DNA of 64,000 nucleotides from a virus. Under the pieces are notes generated by a model. It saw nothing but the letters and a program-made list of their open reading frames with translations, was not told the DNA's origin and searched no databases. The stretch spans positions 29,590 to 93,589 of the IMG/VR virus record IMGVR_UViG_3300010396_000045; one strand, written 5' to 3'. Shown here piece after piece: positions 3,660 to 24,876 of this stretch. Position 1 is the first letter of the stretch, and every line of letters begins with the position of its first letter. The position numbers were made by a program, and so were the translations under genes.

Positions 3660-3938
3660 ATGGCTAAGTTCCTGTTCTTCGCAGACCTACCGAACGGCGA
3701 GATGGCCATGACAGTTGATCGTGCTGACTATGACATGGGCGACGGCAAAATGCCGCGCATCTGGACCGAAGCTACTGGATGGGTCCGCTGCACTCGCGTA
3801 GTCCAGAGGAAGTCCAATCCCTCTATGCATAAGTGCGATACTCGCTGCATGTTCGCGCAAGGGCGCACTATGAACTGCGAATGCGCCTGCGGCGGAAAGA
3901 ACCATGGTAAAGGCAATATCGTATGCGAGGCGGCATGA
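3660..3938 (+). CDS. Small Cys-rich (Zn-binding) phage protein
   Basis: CDTRC..CECACGGKNHG motif; strong RBS. Confidence 0.7.
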   Translation: MAKFLFFADLPNGEMAMTVDRADYDMGDGKMPRIWTEATGWVRCTRVVQRKSNPSMHKCDTRCMFAQGRTMNCECACGGKNHGKGNIVCEAA

Positions 3939-4062: not shown

Positions 4063-4272
4063 GTGACGGGAGCCGAGCTAGTAGCCGCCCTAGACACGAT
4101 AGGGTGGTCTAACCGTAAGCTGGCAAAGCGTCTGAGATGCGACGAAATCCGCATTCGTAGATGGATACAGGACGTATCACAGGTCCCTCCGAGCGTCGCT
4201 AAGTGGCTCTCTACGCTAGCCGCATTCCACGAACGCCACCCGGCTCCTACAGATTGGAGAGTGAGGAAATGA
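4063..4272 (+). CDS. Small HTH (XRE-like) DNA-binding protein
   Basis: ELVAALDTIGWSNRKLAKRLRCDEIRIRRW pattern. Confidence 0.7.
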   Translation: MTGAELVAALDTIGWSNRKLAKRLRCDEIRIRRWIQDVSQVPPSVAKWLSTLAAFHERHPAPTDWRVRK

Positions 4273-4481
4273 CGATACACACAGATGCGTTGATGCCGTA
4301 TCTGCATGGAACAGTGGTTTTCCTTCTTGTTCTGCTGTTCAGCGGGATTTGTGCCCCACCGATCCTCGATGCATTCACGAGAGGAAGGCTGGTCACCGGA
4401 GGTGTCTTTAGCCTGATTTACGGCGGGGGCGTCTTCCTCATCGCCGGCGTTTCGACCGGCTACGTGCAGTTCGCGCACTGA
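4269..4481 (+). CDS. Small two-TM membrane protein
   Basis: ATGA overlap with previous stop, GAGG RBS, hydrophobic segments. Confidence 0.6.
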   Translation: MTIHTDALMPYLHGTVVFLLVLLFSGICAPPILDAFTRGRLVTGGVFSLIYGGGVFLIAGVSTGYVQFAH

Positions 4482-5848: not shown

Positions 5849-6619
5849 ATGGCTGAGAAGACTATAGCACGCCCAATGCGTGGAGATAGATGCGCCCGCA
5901 ATCCGCTGCGGGACCTTTATCCGGTAGAATACCAAGCCTGGGTGCAGCTTAGACAGAGATGCTACAATCCAGATAACGAAAGCTACTCGAATTATGGCGC
6001 AAGAGGCATCCGCGTCGAGGCTATATGGGATACCTTCGAGGGCTTTATGGCCACCATGGGGCCTAAGCCATCCCCAGACCTTAGCGTCGAGCGGCCAGAC
6101 AATGATGGGAATTACGGCGCTCAATGCTACTGGGGAACCCCAGATGAGCAGAACAACAACAATCGGCACAATCACCCGATAACCTATGACGGACGAACAC
6201 AGAACCTAGAGCAATGGTCTCAGGAAATCGGGCTTGACCATACGGCGCTTCTGAAGCGGCTTAGACTGAAGTGGACTATAGGTCAGGCGCTAGGGTTCGA
6301 GCCTCCTCCATTCAATCCCAAGGCCCACAATGGGACTACCGTGTCCGAAAAGTTGGCTTGTGGCGTCAACCGGACGACTTACCAAATGCGAATCGCTTCG
6401 GGATGGACCGACGAAGCCGCGAGGCAGAATGTCGATGGGCGCAAGCACAAGCAGAACAAGCATCCGAAGTATATCTACGTCAGCCATCCGGCTCTTGGCG
6501 AAGGAGAGTTCACCATTCAGCAGGCCGCTTTGATCGTAGGAAAGAAACCCAACACGGTGACTGTAGCAATAACCCGCAGAGGGAAGACGCCTCTGCAAGC
6601 TCTTGGACTGGAGAAGTAG
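5849..6619 (+). CDS. Free-standing HNH-type homing endonuclease with C-terminal DNA-binding modules
   Basis: RQRCYNP..YGARGIRV..SVERPDNDGNY..CYWGTPDEQNNN motif typical of phage HNH HEGs. Confidence 0.8.
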   Translation: MAEKTIARPMRGDRCARNPLRDLYPVEYQAWVQLRQRCYNPDNESYSNYGARGIRVEAIWDTFEGFMATMGPKPSPDLSVERPDNDGNYGAQCYWGTPDEQNNNNRHNHPITYDGRTQNLEQWSQEIGLDHTALLKRLRLKWTIGQALGFEPPPFNPKAHNGTTVSEKLACGVNRTTYQMRIASGWTDEAARQNVDGRKHKQNKHPKYIYVSHPALGEGEFTIQQAALIVGKKPNTVTVAITRRGKTPLQALGLEK

Positions 6620-20553: not shown

Positions 20554-21363
20554 CTAAGTCCCTGGAGTTGGTGGGACTGTCTGGGCGGCAGCCGGAACAC
20601 CAGCTACGCCGTGCCTGTGAGTAGACAGCCCCACCTGGTCTGCCGTCCCAAAGCCGCCCGTTACCGTCCCGGTGATCTGCAAGTTGCCGTTGATCTTCAC
20701 CAGAGGACAGTTAATCGTCATCAGGCTCGCGCTGTTGACAGTCACGGTAGGCGCAGTGACCGTAGCCGAATTGTTGGCCGTCACGGTCACGCTAGAAGCG
20801 CCGGTAATGTTGACGACGTTGTTCTGCGCGTCCGCCTCTATCGTTATCCCCTTGACGACCAGCCTGACCTTCTCGTTGTCGTTATCGACCTCGGCATAGA
20901 TCGACCCGTCGCTCGTCCGGAGCTGCGCCGTCGTCGTCGAGAGGTTGCTGATCTTTGTGGCTTGAGACCAAGGCCCAGGTATCGCGAAGCCGTCCGACAA
21001 ATCGTGCATTCGCAATTCTCGCTGCGTTTGCACTCCGCCTTGCTGCCACCAGTTGTCGATGCACCGGGAGCTGAAAACGATCAGGCATTCGTCCCCCTGC
21101 TGCACCGGAAACGTCAGCGCATATTGCCCGCCCCGAGGAAAGATAACCGGGACGTCGGGAATGACAGGCATGACCTTCCATTCCTTCGTCTGGTCTGGCC
21201 CCGTATAGAGCGCGTGTAGCGCAGGCTGGACCTGTGCCGTTATCGTATCCGCATCGTAGCTGGTGATGATGCCGGGTAACGCGGTCCAAATGCCGGATTG
21301 TCTGCTCTGAATAGCACTTTTAACCGCGCTCTGGGGGTTTTCGTAGCGTTCTCGGTCTTGCAT
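20554..21363 (-). CDS. Baseplate central spike (Gp138/gp45-like)
   Basis: DVPVIFPRGG, GDECLIVFSSRCIDNWW, RMHDLSDGF; C-terminal HRH metal-binding apex. Confidence 0.9.
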   Translation of the reverse strand: MQDRERYENPQSAVKSAIQSRQSGIWTALPGIITSYDADTITAQVQPALHALYTGPDQTKEWKVMPVIPDVPVIFPRGGQYALTFPVQQGDECLIVFSSRCIDNWWQQGGVQTQRELRMHDLSDGFAIPGPWSQATKISNLSTTTAQLRTSDGSIYAEVDNDNEKVRLVVKGITIEADAQNNVVNITGASSVTVTANNSATVTAPTVTVNSASLMTINCPLVKINGNLQITGTVTGGFGTADQVGLSTHRHGVAGVPAAAQTVPPTPGT

Positions 21364-22466
21364 TATAGAGGTGTCGTCCCCGGCGAAGGTCCTAACACAG
21401 CCGATGCAGATAGAGGCGGAGGGGGAGGAACGTTGAGGTTAGCTTGCGGCGTGTTAGCCGTGGGATCTACCGATAACGCCGTAAGCCTAGTGTACCACTC
21501 GCCGCCTCGCGTATCACCGACGTGGCTCGCGTAGATCACGACATAGTCTCCGTCGCTATTCAGCGGAGGAACCCATGCTCCCTGGTTCCCAAAGGCAGCA
21601 TTAGGAGAAGCCGCCCGTTGGTTTATCGTCGCATTAGCTGCCGCAAGGCGTAGCTGCGCAATCTCACTATTATTGAAGCGAACCCGCGCTCCCCAAACGA
21701 CACTTGGGTTCAACAAGCACATCGCCTGTATTCCCGTTTCAGTCTGTTCCGGAGTTCCTATCTGGCCTGTGGCCGAATTTATGATTACTGCCTCTCCAGG
21801 ACGGACAGAAAACTTTGGGAGAACCTGGAGCTGGTTTTGATAAATGTTCCAAGTGCACGAATAGGAGTCAGCAAAATCGTCAAGATAATCGCGTGTTAGC
21901 CCATGCATTACCTTACCACGAGGAGCCGGCTGGGCCTGCAAGCCATCGGGAGGGCCGCCATATGTTGCCTGCCACGGAGAAAGTGAATCGGCACAGTGTT
22001 GAAGAACATCCTCGCTCGTATAGCCTTTTGCTAGGCTCTTGGAGAGGAATCCGAAATTATGGGCCATATCTCCGTCAGCCGCAAAGATGTCGATGTATGT
22101 ATCTACATTGGACTCTTTGCCGGTACGGAGTTGATAGATGTAGCCCTGGAATAGTTGACCAAAGTTCTGCTGGTAGCCGGCCTTCAACACGACCTGCGCC
22201 GAAGTCTTCCTAGGAACTCCGACTATCGTCGCACCGTTCTGGCTTGCTAGACCTACAATCCTTTCCGTAGTGTTGGAACTCAGGTTATAAACTCTTGCAT
22301 GTAGAGACGCGGGGGTATCTCTCGTCCAATAGTTGACAGTGAAACGAATCCTCAAGACATTCGGCTGGTCAGGACCCGCTAGCTCGATACCATTACCTTG
22401 CATGTCAGCAACGACGAGGGAGCATGCTCGCAGCCACTGAGCAGCGCTACTTACTGTCTGGCTCAC
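21363..22466 (-). CDS. Baseplate hub protein
   Basis: RVYNLS, LKAGY..LFQG, CLLNP, GDTRGGEWY; synteny. Confidence 0.85.
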   Translation of the reverse strand: MSQTVSSAAQWLRACSLVVADMQGNGIELAGPDQPNVLRIRFTVNYWTRDTPASLHARVYNLSSNTTERIVGLASQNGATIVGVPRKTSAQVVLKAGYQQNFGQLFQGYIYQLRTGKESNVDTYIDIFAADGDMAHNFGFLSKSLAKGYTSEDVLQHCADSLSPWQATYGGPPDGLQAQPAPRGKVMHGLTRDYLDDFADSYSCTWNIYQNQLQVLPKFSVRPGEAVIINSATGQIGTPEQTETGIQAMCLLNPSVVWGARVRFNNSEIAQLRLAAANATINQRAASPNAAFGNQGAWVPPLNSDGDYVVIYASHVGDTRGGEWYTRLTALSVDPTANTPQANLNVPPPPPLSASAVLGPSPGTTPL

Positions 22467-22496
22467 TTGCTTCTTGCCGCCGTAAAGCTATATAAT
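22467..22496 (+). promoter_or_regulatory. Promoter for pentamer-repeat RNA A
   Basis: TTGCTT-N18-TATAAT just upstream of the array. Confidence 0.6.
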
Positions 22497-22514
22497 GAGG
22501 CACGCTCCCCAGAG

Positions 22515-22607
22515 CGCATGGCTTGGTGTAGTCCGGTCAGGCGATGTATGGCGCGGTGGGGCTTGGAAGGGCAGTGTCAGGTATGGCACGGCTGGGTAAG
22601 GCAAGGA
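22515..22607 (+). ncRNA. (GGY-NN) pentamer array A, putative guide RNA (18 variable dinucleotides)
   Basis: cgcAT ggcTT ggtGT agtCC ggtCA ggcGA tgtAT ggcGC ggtGG ggcTT ggaAG ggcAG tgtCA ggtAT ggcAC ggcTG ggtAA ggcAA gga; own promoter and terminator. Confidence 0.85.
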
Positions 22608-22640
22608 GAGCGGGGCTTAGGCTCCGCTCTATTTCTTTCT
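22607..22640 (+). terminator. Intrinsic terminator after array A
   Basis: AGAGCGGGG-cttagg-CTCCGCTCT stem then ATTTCTTTCT. Confidence 0.7.
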
Positions 22641-22829
22641 GTCCAGCCCGATCATCATGAGCCGACGAACTGCTTCTGGCCGGGTCGGCAAATCATCCTG
22701 AACTCGCCGCCAGTCATCCAACCGTACTAGCTGCGACCGCTCTAGCCGTACGTTGACCGCCTCGCTATCTACGCTTGGCCTGCCAATTTTCTTTGCCGAT
22801 TTCTTAGCGCCGGATATTGACATGCCCAA
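22629..22829 (-). CDS. Ribbon-helix-helix DNA-binding protein
   Basis: GRPSVDSEAVNVRL..LDDWRR..PTRPEAVRRL; divergent from HNH/RAMP genes. Confidence 0.75.
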   Translation of the reverse strand: MGMSISGAKKSAKKIGRPSVDSEAVNVRLERSQLVRLDDWRRVQDDLPTRPEAVRRLMMIGLDRKK

Positions 22830-22872: not shown

Positions 22873-23298
22873 ATGCCGTGCCAGGGTCTAATCGGCGACT
22901 ACTCATGCTCTGGCTGGCGCTCACTTGCTCAGCATATCCGAGAGCGCGACGGCAACCGATGCCGGGGCTGTAACCGGGGGCAGGAGACCATCGCGCTTGA
23001 GGTTCACCATCGGACCTACGGGACTCCGGGCCGCCCATGCGGAGCGTGTTATCTGACTGCCGTAGAAGACGACGACCTAGTTACCCTCTGCATTGAGTGC
23101 CACGAAGCGGTGACGAACGTGCGCCGGAAAGTGCGCTACGCCACCAGAAGCATAGAGATCGATACGATTGACCCTCCTGTGGCCGTAGTAGAGCCAGTCA
23201 GGAGGGTTCTGATCGTTCCCGTCGAACTGGTTCCTCCTCCGGTAGCCGCCGGAGTCGTAGTCAGGCCTAAGAAGTTCAATCCATTCAGCGAAGGTTAA
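22873..23298 (+). CDS. HNH endonuclease (McrA-like core) with C-terminal tail
   Basis: RERDGNRCRGC..LEVHHRTY..LVTLCIECHEAV. Confidence 0.85.
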   Translation: MPCQGLIGDYSCSGWRSLAQHIRERDGNRCRGCNRGQETIALEVHHRTYGTPGRPCGACYLTAVEDDDLVTLCIECHEAVTNVRRKVRYATRSIEIDTIDPPVAVVEPVRRVLIVPVELVPPPVAAGVVVRPKKFNPFSEG

Positions 23299-23300
23299 GT

Positions 23301-23891
23301 ATGCACAAAATACTCAAGACACGTCTAATCTCTGTTGCGCCATTTATCATGCACAACGGTCAGACTGCCGATCCCCTAAACAAGTTCGCCAAGGCGATGA
23401 AGGAAATCAGCGGCAAGCGGAAGAAGACCGAGGCGGACTTCATTGAACTGGCCCGCATCGAGTACTTCGCCGGCCTTTACATCGATAAGGATGGCCCAAT
23501 CATCCCATCCGTAATGCTAGAAGCTATGATTACGAAAGGCGCGGCAAAGGCCAAGAACAGTAAGCTAGCCGAGGCCGGAGTTATCGTCGACCAGCACGGT
23601 TACCTAGAATACGACGGTCCTCGGACCCCGGAGGAACTTGTCGCTGACGATCGGTTCCGGCTGACAGTTCCTGTCCGCATCGGCCAACAGAAGGTCATCA
23701 GGACGCGCCCAATCTTCCGGCAATGGGCGGCTGACATCGAGATCAAATACCTGGATGATATCATTAACGAACGCGACCTGCTTACCGCACTGCGGGCAGC
23801 GGGCACGTATGTCGGCATCGGTGACTGGCGCCCGCGCAACGGACGCTTCGCTCTCGCTGCCGATATGGCAGCCTTGAAAGAGGCGGCCTAG
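23301..23891 (+). CDS. RAMP/Cas7-like RNA-binding protein associated with pentamer arrays
   Basis: N-terminal strand + PFIMHN, IIPSVMLEAMI helix, RTRPIF..W thumb, C-terminal Gly-rich loop AGTYVGIGDWRPRNGRF. Confidence 0.7.
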   Translation: MHKILKTRLISVAPFIMHNGQTADPLNKFAKAMKEISGKRKKTEADFIELARIEYFAGLYIDKDGPIIPSVMLEAMITKGAAKAKNSKLAEAGVIVDQHGYLEYDGPRTPEELVADDRFRLTVPVRIGQQKVIRTRPIFRQWAADIEIKYLDDIINERDLLTALRAAGTYVGIGDWRPRNGRFALAADMAALKEAA

Positions 23892-23979
23892 GGCTTGGTC
23901 AGGTCAGGCTCGGTATGGCTCGGCAGGGCAAGGCATAGTTGGGCAGTGTCCGGTCAGGCTTGGTATGGCTTGGTGAGGG
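23892..23979 (+). ncRNA. (GGY-NN) pentamer array B (17 units)
   Basis: Starts right after the RAMP stop; NN = TT CA CA TC AT TC AG AA AT TG AG CC CA TT AT TT GA. Confidence 0.85.
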
Positions 23980-23988
23980 CTTTCATAG

Positions 23989-24033
23989 CGGGGAGGAGGC
24001 GATACGTCGCCTTCTCTTCGGTGCGAAAGTACC
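23989..24033 (+). other. Two hairpins separating arrays B and C
   Basis: CGGGGAGGAGGCGA-tacg-TCGCCTTCTCTTCG and GGTGC-gaaa-GTACC. Confidence 0.65.
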
Positions 24034-24115
24034 GCATGGTCGAGTACGGCCTGGTCAGGTGAGGCTGGCTATGGCGCGGTCTAGTCAGGTCCGGCGATGT
24101 TGGGTATGGCAGGGA
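24033..24115 (+). ncRNA. (GGY-NN) pentamer array C (16 units)
   Basis: Begins CGCATGG like array A; NN = AT CG AC CT CA GA TG AT GC CT CA CC GA TG AT AG. Confidence 0.8.
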
Positions 24116-24124
24116 AACTACTTT

Positions 24125-24511
24125 ATGATACGAGTACTGACCGTCACGGCAGCAATCCTATTAGCAGGATCTCTAGCTAATGCGGATGAGATCCGCTGGT
24201 TCGCGGGGCGCTATGTCAACGTTATGGATGGCTATGCCTATAGCGATCCCGACTCAATGATCGAGTGCTCTATAGATAGAGACTGGACAAAACCTCCGCT
24301 ACCCCAGTTCCGGCATAAGCCGGCCCATGGCTCTTGTCAGCATGTCCTTCGTTCCGCAGCCAATCCTGGCTTCGTCCCATTTAGGGACGGATGGTTTATC
24401 AATACCGAGCCACCATACGCAGGTATTATAGGTATGCAGTGCGGCGCGACTGTCGGCCAGAAGGATGGGGGATTCTGGTGTGACTGGCCCCCTTATGGAA
24501 CCACAAAATAA
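24125..24511 (+). CDS. Small exported protein
   Basis: Likely start MIRVLTVTAAILLAGSLANA (signal peptide); the track's N-terminal extension is a translation of the arrays. Confidence 0.6.
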   Translation: MIRVLTVTAAILLAGSLANADEIRWFAGRYVNVMDGYAYSDPDSMIECSIDRDWTKPPLPQFRHKPAHGSCQHVLRSAANPGFVPFRDGWFINTEPPYAGIIGMQCGATVGQKDGGFWCDWPPYGTTK

Positions 24512-24876
24512 AGGTGCCCAGTCGTTCCAAGACCTGAGAAGTCCGGAACGCCGTCCGGATCACCGTCGACCTGGACCATAAGCGCTCCCCCGATGCCGAG
24601 GTATTCGTACTGGTAGAGTAGGTCGATGCCTGGGATTAGTGGCAACCCGGCGGCAATCGAGTTGCCAGTCGTATCACTGATATCCAGAAGCCAGCCGTCC
24701 AGCACGTTAGTGTCGAAAACCACATTCTGGCTAAGCGTATCTGCACCGATGGGTGCGCCAGATATTCCAGCGTTGGCCTCATGGTAGGTCAGCCTCATCG
24801 TATAGGTTACGCCCGCAAGCTGGATAGAGAATTCCTGCGCTTGGGCGATAAGCGGGATCTCGTACCATGTAGCCAT
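24493..24876 (-). CDS. Baseplate plug-type small tail protein
   Basis: YEIPL..FSIQLAG, WLLDISD, PLIPGIDLLYQYEYLG. Confidence 0.8.
   Translation of the reverse strand: MATWYEIPLIAQAQEFSIQLAGVTYTMRLTYHEANAGISGAPIGADTLSQNVVFDTNVLDGWLLDISDTTGNSIAAGLPLIPGIDLLYQYEYLGIGGALMVQVDGDPDGVPDFSGLGTTGHLYFVVP

What the first reader, a model, noticed from the sequence alone, without database searches (positions are those of the whole stretch)
21681..22607. Array A decodes to an antisense, wobble-skipping match to a foreign allele of the neighbouring hub gene
Seen: NN series AT TT GT CC CA GA AT GC GG TT AG AG CA AT AC TG (AA AA). Reverse-complemented and read as NNx codons: CAx GTx ATx TGx CTx CTx AAx CCx GCx ATx TCx TGx GGx ACx AAx ATx, compatible with Q-V-M-C-L-L-N-P-A-I-S-W-G-T-K-I. 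The phage's own hub reads Q-A-M-C-L-L-N-P-S-V-V-W-G-A-R-V at 21728-21681: 9 of 16 compatible, most others conservative. At DNA level only 7 of these 16 dinucleotides match self, and both Leu use TTG instead of CTx, a synonymous change at a read position. Inference: the RNA pairs two bases and skips one, with the skip on the wobble position so third-position mutation gives no escape. It targets the coding strand of a competitor's hub gene while self is immune.
Basis: partly seen in the sequence, partly recalled or inferred. Interest (0 to 1): 0.95.

Follow-up and report, generated by a model that had tools for sequence, protein, structure and literature searches.

The report
Phage VIPR guide aimed at rivals' hub gene
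Array A is a guide RNA of a VIPR system (a CRISPR-like phage system first described in 2026 preprints), and its variable letters spell a conserved stretch of the baseplate hub gene as related phages write it, not as this phage writes it, so it is a clear new example of a known kind.

Summary
Array A (22518-22607, + strand) is 18 in-phase NN+GGY pentamers with exactly the NN series reported. The hub gene reads QAMCLLNPSVVWGARV at 21681-21728 (- strand). That is 7 of 16 dinucleotides and 9 of 16 residues compatible with the guide. On its own this self match is at chance level: the window holds a better 8/16 site elsewhere.

I fetched hub genes of related phages by homology, not by pattern. They match guide A at the same codons, in frame, with the skipped base on the wobble position: 12, 13, 13 and 10 of 16 dinucleotides (27, 28, 28 and 23 of 32 bases). 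Self gives 7/16 (20/32). None of 1000 shuffled guides exceeded 23/32, and only a 1-base skip gives the signal.

The system is a VIPR locus, described in bioRxiv 10.64898/2026.04.26.720920, .720927 and 2026.10.15.759431. The gene at 23301-23891 matches the solved SUSP1 Vipr protein (PDB 36pp, E 8.5e-30). An HNH gene sits directly upstream, as in at least 36 of the 80 nearest Vipr loci.

The related phages lack the cassette. This phage's hub has its densest cluster of unique substitutions exactly at the target.

Targets of arrays B and C were not found. Earlier notes of this scan record VIPR loci in other genomes.

The parts
22467..22496 (+). Putative promoter of vrRNA A: TTGCTT (22467-22472), an 18-nt spacer, then a perfect TATAAT (22491-22496). 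It abuts the hub start codon on the other strand.
   Evidence: Read directly. The consensus scan did not list it because the -35 hexamer matches only 3 of 6. This is a prediction only.
22503..22516 (+). Small 5' hairpin (CGCTC-CCCA-GAGCG) before the repeat tract of vrRNA A
   Evidence: Read directly. The predicted minimum-free-energy fold does not form this hairpin and pairs these bases with the repeat tract instead.
22518..22607 (+). Array A, the guide part of vrRNA A: 18 NN+GGY pentamers. Units 1-16 spell the hub target. Units 17-18 (AA, AA) match no allele.
22607..22640 (+). 3' tail of vrRNA A: a 10-bp GC-rich hairpin followed by a T-rich run, i.e. an intrinsic terminator-like structure
21681..21728 (-). 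Self copy of the guide A target site in the baseplate hub gene (codons QAMCLLNPSVVWGARV). It matches the guide at 7/16 units and 20/32 bases.
21363..22466 (-). Baseplate hub gene (367 aa). Its alleles in related phages carry the predicted target.
   Evidence: phrog_196 baseplate hub, E 3.2e-56; Pfam E217_GP41, weak hit. Homologues.
22629..22829 (-). Small ribbon-helix-helix-like repressor gene, divergent from the HNH-vipr operon
   Evidence: phrog_4738 transcriptional repressor, E 1e-5. A similar ORF lies upstream and divergent in 2 of 80 related Vipr loci.
22873..23298 (+). HNH nuclease gene (141 aa), the likely Vipr-accessory (vap) gene. Its stop lies 2 nt before the vipr start.
   Evidence: phrog_119 HNH, E 4.6e-12; Pfam HNH below its cut-off. 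An HNH-like segment lies directly upstream of vipr on the same strand in at least 36 of 80 relatives.
23301..23891 (+). vipr gene (196 aa), a RAMP/Cas7-like protein that forms a filament on the vrRNA
   Evidence: PDB 36pp 'SUSP1 Vipr protein', E 8.5e-30 over residues 3-185. phrog_4652, E 3.5e-53. Homologues in five distant phages all sit next to period-5 arrays.
23890..23979 (+). Array B: 17-18 NN+GGY units (vrRNA B). Target not found.
   Evidence: target searches
23980..24035 (+). Structured spacer, or tail of vrRNA B: a 10-bp hairpin with a UACG loop and a 5-bp hairpin with a GAAA loop
   Evidence: Read directly and folded: z-score -3.07, and 0 of 200 shuffles fold as well.
24036..24115 (+). 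Array C: 16 NN+GGY units (vrRNA C). Target not found.
   Evidence: target searches

Best explanation
Array A is the guide portion of a vrRNA of a phage-borne VIPR system. The mechanism below comes from the cited preprints, not from this work. Vipr protomers (gene 23301-23891) bind one GGY trimer each and form a helical filament on the RNA. The filament presents the NN dinucleotides, which pair with double-stranded DNA at two of every three bases. This produces an R-loop triplex that blocks transcription. In types that carry a nuclease, the preprints predict that the target is destroyed.

The first 16 NN of array A are complementary to the coding strand of the most conserved stretch of the baseplate hub gene (V.CLLNPAI.WGT.I), as related phages encode it. 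The skipped base falls on the wobble position, so synonymous third-position drift does not help the target escape.

The carrier's own hub gene lies next to the cassette. It differs from the guide at 9 of the 16 read dinucleotides. Two of these are synonymous Leu codons written TTG where the guide reads CTN. Five are substitutions at residues the sister alleles conserve. The carrier should therefore be spared.

I infer that during mixed infection the RNP, together with the co-transcribed HNH protein, silences or cuts the hub gene of cassette-less relatives and favours the carrier.

Shown here: membership of the family, the array anatomy, the specific fit to foreign alleles under the 1-base-skip rule, the poor fit to self, and absence of the cassette in the relatives. 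Inferred: expression, binding, HNH activity, and the outcome of competition.
For: 1. Vipr homology. The protein matches PDB 36pp 'SUSP1 Vipr protein' at E 8.5e-30 over nearly its full length and phrog_4652 at E 3.5e-53.

2. Conserved gene-array linkage. Vipr homologues in phages of Mycobacterium, Gordonia, Pseudomonas, Listonella and E. coli all lie beside period-5 arrays.

3. Foreign versus self alleles. Hub loci were fetched by homology.
- L006/L014: 12/16 units, 27/32 bases.
- L015: 13/16 units, 28/32 bases.
- L016: 13/16 units, 28/32 bases.
- L017: 10/16 units, 23/32 bases.
- All are in frame at the homologous codons.
- Self: 7/16 units, 20/32 bases.

4. Nulls. 1000 shuffled guides reach at most 23/32 over the 84 kb of hub loci. 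Skips 0, 2 and 3 reach at most 23/32 over 649 kb.

5. Protein level. The nine closest hub relatives (65-82% identity) are compatible with the guide at 11-14 positions, and self at 9.

6. Self-specific changes. Self-unique substitutions at columns where at least 3 of 4 sister alleles agree peak at the target: 5-6 per 16 residues. This is the only place in the gene with 5 or more, against a gene-wide mean of about 1.2.

7. No self-target. No site in the 93.6-kb genome exceeds 8/18 units for any guide.

8. Cassette absent from relatives. There, plug and hub are separated by 17 to about 365 nt.

9. HNH linkage. An HNH-like segment lies directly upstream of vipr in at least 36 of 80 nearest Vipr loci.

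10. Published mechanism, thresholds and precedent for guides that match rivals better than self.
Against: - No perfect or near-perfect target was found. The full 16-unit pattern has no exact match in the viral contig collection.
- The best natural alleles reach 81% of NN units (88% of bases) if the guide is 16 units, and 72% of units (81% of bases) if all 18 units count.
- The related phages are only about 70% identical to this one at DNA level in the hub. It is not shown that they meet this phage in one host.
- Mismatch tolerance of VIPR is not known to me, so 'self is immune' and 'relatives are hit' are both inferences.
- The HNH motif is weak: below the Pfam cut-off, with D where the usual N stands.
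- Guides B and C have no identified target.
Confidence: 0.8

Rival explanations
1. RNA-guided homing or allele drive. The HNH-Vipr-vrRNA A complex cuts the hub gene of cassette-less relatives about 0.75 kb from the insertion point. Repair from the co-infecting carrier then copies the cassette together with the resistant hub allele, as free-standing homing endonuclease genes do in T4-like phages. This refines the function in the best explanation and is not exclusive of it.
For: - The target lies 740-790 nt from the cassette edge, in the adjacent gene.
- The relatives have an empty site.
- The HNH gene is translationally coupled to vipr, and the pairing recurs in at least 36 of 80 relatives.
- The self allele is altered at the target.
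- The cassette sits antisense inside a structural operon, as mobile endonuclease genes often do.
Against: - No recombination boundary or co-conversion tract is visible. Identity to the relatives is uniformly about 70% along the hub.
- No close relative carries the same cassette at this or another site. The nearest Vipr is 53% identical.
- Across 103 guides of related Vipr loci, matches to each other's flanks were not above the shuffled-guide null.
- HNH activity is unproven.
Confidence: 0.2
2. The resemblance between the NN series and the hub gene is coincidence produced by looking hard at nearby genes.
For: The self match alone is at noise level. There is an 8/16 site at 5874-5921 and another 7/16 site in the window. 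Shuffles reach 9/16 residues in 3.5% of trials. An unrelated AT-rich phage contig gives 13/18 out of frame.
Against: Four independently fetched hub alleles all have their best site at the homologous codons with 10-13 of 16 units. No shuffle in 1000 exceeds 23/32 bases, against 27-28 observed for the three closest alleles. Only the published skip length works.
Confidence: 0.02
3. Guide A regulates the phage's own hub gene, for example by timing baseplate expression, through partial complementarity.
For: The array lies beside the hub gene, and its promoter abuts the hub start codon.
Against: Self complementarity is 20/32 bases. That is within the range shuffled guides reach by chance (18-23/32) and below the authors' 80% cut-off. 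The self allele differs from the guide exactly where relatives match it.
Confidence: 0.03
4. The arrays are not guides. They are binding sites or sponges for a multimeric RNA-binding protein (TRAP-like), with the NN as free spacers.
For: My first impression was of triplets with 2-nt spacers in long phased runs next to a small protein gene.
Against: The protein is homologous to a solved Vipr. The NN of array A carry specific information about a gene.
Confidence: 0.02

Closest known systems
Type II VIPR of Escherichia phage SUSP1 and the Pseudomonas fulva prophage (bioRxiv 10.64898/2026.04.26.720920; structures 10.64898/2026.04.26.720927, PDB 36pp)
   Same: - The Vipr protein is homologous over its full length (E 8.5e-30).
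- The vrRNAs are built of GGY/NN pentamers followed by a structured 3' tail.
- One vrRNA lies upstream and an array lies downstream of the genes.
- The 1-base skip falls on the wobble position.
- The targets are in competing mobile elements, and there is no self-target.
   Different: - No vap1 homologue is present. An HNH gene sits upstream of vipr instead.
- The guides are longer: 16-18 units against the 9-16 reported.
- The tails are simple hairpins (a terminator; UACG and GAAA loops). No pseudoknot was detected.
- The target is an essential virion gene of related phages, not a satellite or prophage regulator.
Nuclease-associated VIPR types (III-V). HNH domains are shown among Vap proteins in fig. 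S21 of the same preprint.
   Same: An HNH gene is coupled to vipr. [quoted passage not shown]
   Different: The preprint describes types III and V as enriched in bacterial defence islands and aimed at viruses. This locus is in a 93.6-kb phage genome and aimed at sister phages. I could not assign a type number, because the classification rests on a Vipr phylogeny and supplementary data that were not available.
vrRNAs that match rivals better than self (bioRxiv 10.64898/2026.10.15.759431)
   Same: The guide's self-match is lower than its match to competing phages, which avoids autoimmunity. The codon-periodic reading limits escape by mutation.
   Different: In that work the targets are vipr genes, other vrRNAs and a satellite recombinase in Enterobacteriaceae phages. 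Here the target is the baseplate hub gene next to the cassette in an uncultured phage lineage known only from metagenome contigs.
Class 1 CRISPR-Cas Cas7 filaments
   Same: A RAMP-fold protein polymerises on a guide RNA with a fixed register and periodically excludes bases from pairing.
   Different: The period is 5 nt with 2 paired bases, not 6 nt with 5 paired. There is no CRISPR array, no adaptation genes and no PAM. The guides are hard-wired in the repeat tract.
Free-standing homing endonuclease genes of phages (e.g. the T4 seg/mob genes); an analogy from general knowledge
   Same: A nuclease cassette is inserted between conserved genes. Its recognition site is in a neighbouring gene of cassette-less relatives, and the carrier's own allele is resistant.
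   Different: Here specificity would come from an RNA guide, not from the protein. Homing is not shown.

Membership tests
VIPR system | A Vipr protein: a minimal RAMP homologous to characterised Vipr proteins | tested here: met
   phmmer against PDB chains: 36pp_D 'SUSP1 Vipr protein', E 8.5e-30, query residues 3-185 of 196. 33-42% identity to homologues in five phages.
VIPR system | Tandem five-base repeats with a conserved GGY and variable NN, in non-coding DNA flanking vipr | tested here: met
   Three arrays of 18, 17-18 and 16 units without indels. They are the only such arrays in the genome.
VIPR system | The repeat tract is followed by a structured 3' tail | tested here: inconclusive
   A is followed by a 10-bp terminator-like hairpin. 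B is followed by two tetraloop hairpins with z -3.07. C runs straight into the ribosome-binding region of the next gene. No pseudoknot was found, and tail conservation across relatives was not analysed.
VIPR system | An adjacent accessory (vap) gene with a DNA-related function | tested here: met
   An HNH gene lies 2 nt upstream of vipr. An HNH-like segment occupies the same position in at least 36 of 80 nearest Vipr loci.
VIPR system | The NN read with a 1-base skip find natural targets at 80% match or more, with the skip on the wobble position | tested here: met
   Guide A against L015 and L016 hub genes: 13/16 units (81%) and 28/32 bases (88%), in frame. Other skip lengths stay at background. 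With all 18 units: 72% of units and 81% of bases. Not met for guides B and C, for which no target was found.
VIPR system | No self-target above threshold | tested here: met
   The best site in the 93.6-kb genome is 7-8 of 18 units for each guide.
VIPR system | vrRNAs are expressed, co-purify with Vipr, and direct DNA binding or silencing | not testable with these tools
No wet-lab data exist for this phage.
Type II VIPR (SUSP1 type) | A vap1 gene downstream of vipr | tested here: not met
   The downstream genes of wV8, Medea1, LittleE and Trine are homologous to each other. Nothing similar occurs in the window or in the 80 nearest loci.
Nuclease-type VIPR (types III-V of the preprint) | Placement in the corresponding clade of the authors' Vipr phylogeny | not tested
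   Type assignments and reference sequences are in supplementary data that are not held. Only the HNH association could be checked.

The most novel reading that the evidence does not exclude
The HNH-Vipr-vrRNA cassette is an RNA-guided selfish element. Guide A directs cutting of the hub gene of cassette-less relatives next to the empty insertion site. Recombinational repair then copies the cassette plus the recoded, resistant hub allele into the rival genome. This would be programmable homing, a natural RNA-guided gene drive among phages.
Probability: 0.2. Interest if true: 0.8.

Novelty: new member of a known kind. Interest (0 to 1): 0.45.

Why it matters
This is a clean natural example of the VIPR code at work outside the Enterobacteriaceae and Pseudomonas systems studied so far. 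The guide's target could be named. The rivals' and the carrier's versions of the target can be compared codon by codon. The carrier's copy looks recoded at the read positions, including synonymous Leu changes that only matter for a two-of-three reading.

It also shows an HNH-coupled VIPR inside a phage genome, aimed at an essential virion gene of related phages. The preprints place nuclease-bearing types mainly in host defence islands. The position of the target beside the empty insertion site of the relatives makes an RNA-guided homing model directly testable.

Tried and rejected
- **TRAP-like idea.** I first read the arrays as binding sites for a ring protein. I dropped this after the PDB match and the target result.
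- **Rfam.** No family matched the window or four related loci.
- **Exact search for a perfect guide A target.** The 16-unit pattern has no match in viral contigs.
- **Nine-unit sub-pattern of guide A.** It gave two hits. L019 scores 13/18 but lies out of frame in an unrelated AT-rich phage gene, and about this many chance hits are expected in a collection of that size (my estimate). L020 scores 11/18. I treat both as chance.
- **Second candidate site in the window, 5874-5921 (8/16).** It lies in a homing-endonuclease-like gene but with the skip on codon position 1. I treat it as chance.
- **Targets of B and C.**
  - No site in the phage's own genome.
  - Nothing above background in 649 kb of fetched loci.
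  - Sub-pattern scans of viral contigs and genome contigs gave only seed-length chance hits.
- **Close relatives.** None were found for Vipr in viral contigs with the single protein or for the hub in the genome collection. Cultured phages reach at most 38% identity in the hub.
- **Generality test.** Guides of 80 related Vipr loci against each other's flanks were not above the shuffled null. No general claim is made.
- **Recombination boundary.** A sliding-window identity scan along the hub found none.
- **Tools unavailable.**
  - No supplementary files are held for the preprint.
  - One script call returned no answer. My ORF-based extraction of the upstream HNH genes was unreliable, so the HNH association rests on tblastn only.

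Full report
**1. What is in the sequence**

Between the baseplate hub gene (21363-22466, - strand) and the baseplate plug gene (24493-24876, - strand) lies about 2 kb read mostly on the opposite strand. It holds the following parts.
- A perfect -10 hexamer with a weak -35 (22467-22496).
- A small hairpin (read directly; the predicted fold does not form it).
- Array A, 18 in-phase NN+GGY pentamers (22518-22607).
- A terminator-like hairpin (22607-22640).
- A small divergent repressor-like gene (22629-22829, -).
- An HNH gene (22873-23298).
- A 196-aa gene (23301-23891) that starts 2 nt after the HNH stop.
- Array B (23890-23979).
- Two tetraloop hairpins.
- Array C (24036-24115).
- A small secreted-protein gene (24125-24511).

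A period-5 detector finds nothing else of this kind in the window, and a GGY-NN caller finds nothing else in the whole 93,589-bp genome. Every pentamer carries the same constraint, so the constraint acts on the nucleic acid and not on a protein product.

**2.

- The NN series, its reverse complement, the hub translation at 21681-21728, the 7/16 dinucleotide and 9/16 residue counts, and the TTG Leu codons are all correct.
- Alone they prove little. The same gapped pattern finds an 8/16 site at 5874-5921 and another 7/16 site elsewhere in the window.
- Shuffled guides reach 9/16 residues somewhere in the genome in 7 of 200 trials.
- The 8/16 site is out of codon register in an unrelated gene.

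**3. What the system is**

- The 196-aa protein belongs to phrog_4652 (E 3.5e-53).
- It has homologues in phages of Mycobacterium, Gordonia, Pseudomonas, Listonella and E. coli.
- In all five that I fetched, period-5 arrays lie beside the gene.
- A full-text search found the preprint that describes this combination as VIPR. Vipr is a minimal RAMP protein. The vrRNAs are made of alternating GGY and NN. The NN pair with double-stranded DNA while every third target base is skipped, usually the wobble base of a codon (bioRxiv 10.64898/2026.04.26.720920).
- Cryo-EM shows one protomer per repeat in a helical filament and an R-loop triplex (10.64898/2026.04.26.720927).
- A later preprint shows codon-periodic targeting that blocks escape, and guides that match rivals better than self (10.64898/2026.10.15.759431).
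- The window's protein matches the solved SUSP1 Vipr (PDB 36pp) at E 8.5e-30 over residues 3-185.
- Membership is therefore established by sequence and by anatomy.
- Earlier notes of this scan describe VIPR loci in other genomes.

**4. Testing the predicted target**

Protein level:
- Among 72 hub homologues, the closest ones read QVMCLLNPAIAWGTRI. That is 14 of the 16 predicted residues.
- The nine closest relatives score 11-14 compatible positions.
- The phage's own protein scores 9.

DNA level: hub loci were fetched by homology from viral and metagenome contigs. For four alleles the best guide A site is at the homologous codons, in frame, with the skip on the wobble position.

| Allele | Units matched (of 16) | Bases matched (of 32) |
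|---|---|---|
| L006/L014 | 12 | 27 |
| L015 | 13 | 28 |
| L016 | 13 | 28 |
| L017 | 10 | 23 |
| Self | 7 | 20 |

- Controls: 1000 shuffled guides reach at most 23/32 over these 84 kb. Skips of 0, 2 or 3 bases reach at most 23/32 over 649 kb of loci.
- Units 17-18 (AA AA) match no allele and probably do not pair.
- By the authors' 80% criterion, L015 and L016 pass. Units give 81% on 16 units. Bases give 88% on 16 units and 81% on 18. Self fails.
- No exact 16-unit target exists in the viral contig collection.

**5. Self versus rivals**

- I counted columns where at least three of four sister alleles agree and this phage alone differs. There are 27 such changes in 369 columns.
- They reach 5-6 per 16 residues only at the target and just beyond it.
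- In the 11-sequence alignment the self protein is the only outlier at V248, A255 and L264.
- By simple pairwise distance to L014 the target window is not exceptional: rank 112 of 353.
- The claim is therefore limited to changes at otherwise conserved positions.
- No guide has a site above 8/18 units anywhere in the genome.

**6. Context**

- The relatives lack the cassette. Plug and hub are 17 to about 365 nt apart.
- In L014 and L015 this gap holds only a small antisense gene for a secreted protein, unrelated in sequence to the one in this window.
- The secreted-protein gene is therefore a resident of the slot and not part of the VIPR cassette.
- The vap1 gene found next to vipr in wV8, Medea1, LittleE and Trine is absent here.
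- Instead, an HNH-like segment lies directly upstream of vipr on the same strand in at least 36 of the 80 nearest Vipr loci of the viral collection.
- HNH is thus the regular partner in this clade. The preprint lists HNH among Vap domains and expects nuclease-bearing types to destroy targets.

**7. Mechanism and its status**

- Taken from the preprints: filament formation on GGY, gapped pairing, DNA binding and silencing.
- Shown here: family membership, the array anatomy, the specific fit of guide A to foreign hub alleles under the 1-base skip only, the poor fit to self, and the empty site in relatives.
- Inferred: expression from the predicted promoter, discrimination between 28/32 and 20/32, HNH activity, and the benefit in mixed infection.
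- The target lies 740-790 nt from the cassette edge. This suggests RNA-guided homing, but I found no recombination boundary, no second copy of this cassette, and no general excess of flank-targeting among related loci. I rate homing at about 0.2.

**8. What remains open**

- Targets of B and C.
- The exact allele that guide A was selected on.
- The host. Cultured relatives of the hub are at most 38% identical and come from Burkholderia and Ralstonia phages.
- The VIPR type number.

**9. Verdict**

It has one feature that may be a new variant: an HNH-coupled guide aimed at the neighbouring gene of cassette-less relatives.

Noticed in passing
L001:2740-2790, 2880-2920, 4190-4240, 4340-4385; L002:3575-3625, 3700-3750, 3783-3851: In Mycobacterium phage LittleE and Gordonia phage Trine the vrRNA arrays are separated by elements that look like a tRNA T-arm plus acceptor stem (GGTTCGAnTCC). 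ARAGORN calls one of them an odd tRNA in Trine. They may be processing signals for host tRNA enzymes.
   Followed up: partly
L014:5634-6000 and L015:915-1265 (minus strand of the loci): Related phages carry a small antisense gene for a secreted, roughly 100-aa protein in the plug-hub gap. This window has an unrelated 128-aa secreted-protein gene (24125-24511) in the same slot. The slot seems to collect small accessory genes.
   Followed up: partly
L019:6642-6695 (minus strand): Guide A matches 13 of 18 units, 12 of them consecutive and including the last two AA units. The site is in an acidic 375-aa gene of an AT-rich, unrelated viral contig, with the skip on codon position 1. I judge it a chance hit of a database-wide pattern search, but it is the only place where units 17-18 match.
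   Followed up: partly
L088:2676-2711 (also L092 and L098 at 2679): The 36 NN letters of array A, joined without any skip, match 27 of 36 contiguous bases, including an exact 11-mer GAATGCGGTTA. The site is in a small regulator-like gene upstream of another HNH-vipr locus. This is unexpectedly high for chance by a simple binomial estimate. Its meaning is unknown.
   Followed up: no
L096:4481-4520 and L052:4560-4604: Short arrays of 8-9 units in two related Vipr loci have perfect 1-base-skip matches in several other Vipr-carrying contigs, within about 1.5 kb of their vipr genes. The guides are too short for my null to judge. They could be rival-cassette targeting of the kind described for SUSP1-like phages.
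   Followed up: no
window 5849-6619 (+): A 256-aa gene that looks like a free-standing homing endonuclease. Its antisense frame gave the 8/16 chance match to guide A.
   Followed up: partly
L005:2756-2813 and 4149-4206: In the GenBank record of E. coli phage wV8, the conserved tails of the vrRNAs were annotated in 2008 simply as direct repeats 'DR_4'. The Vipr gene (gp95) is annotated as hypothetical.
   Followed up: no
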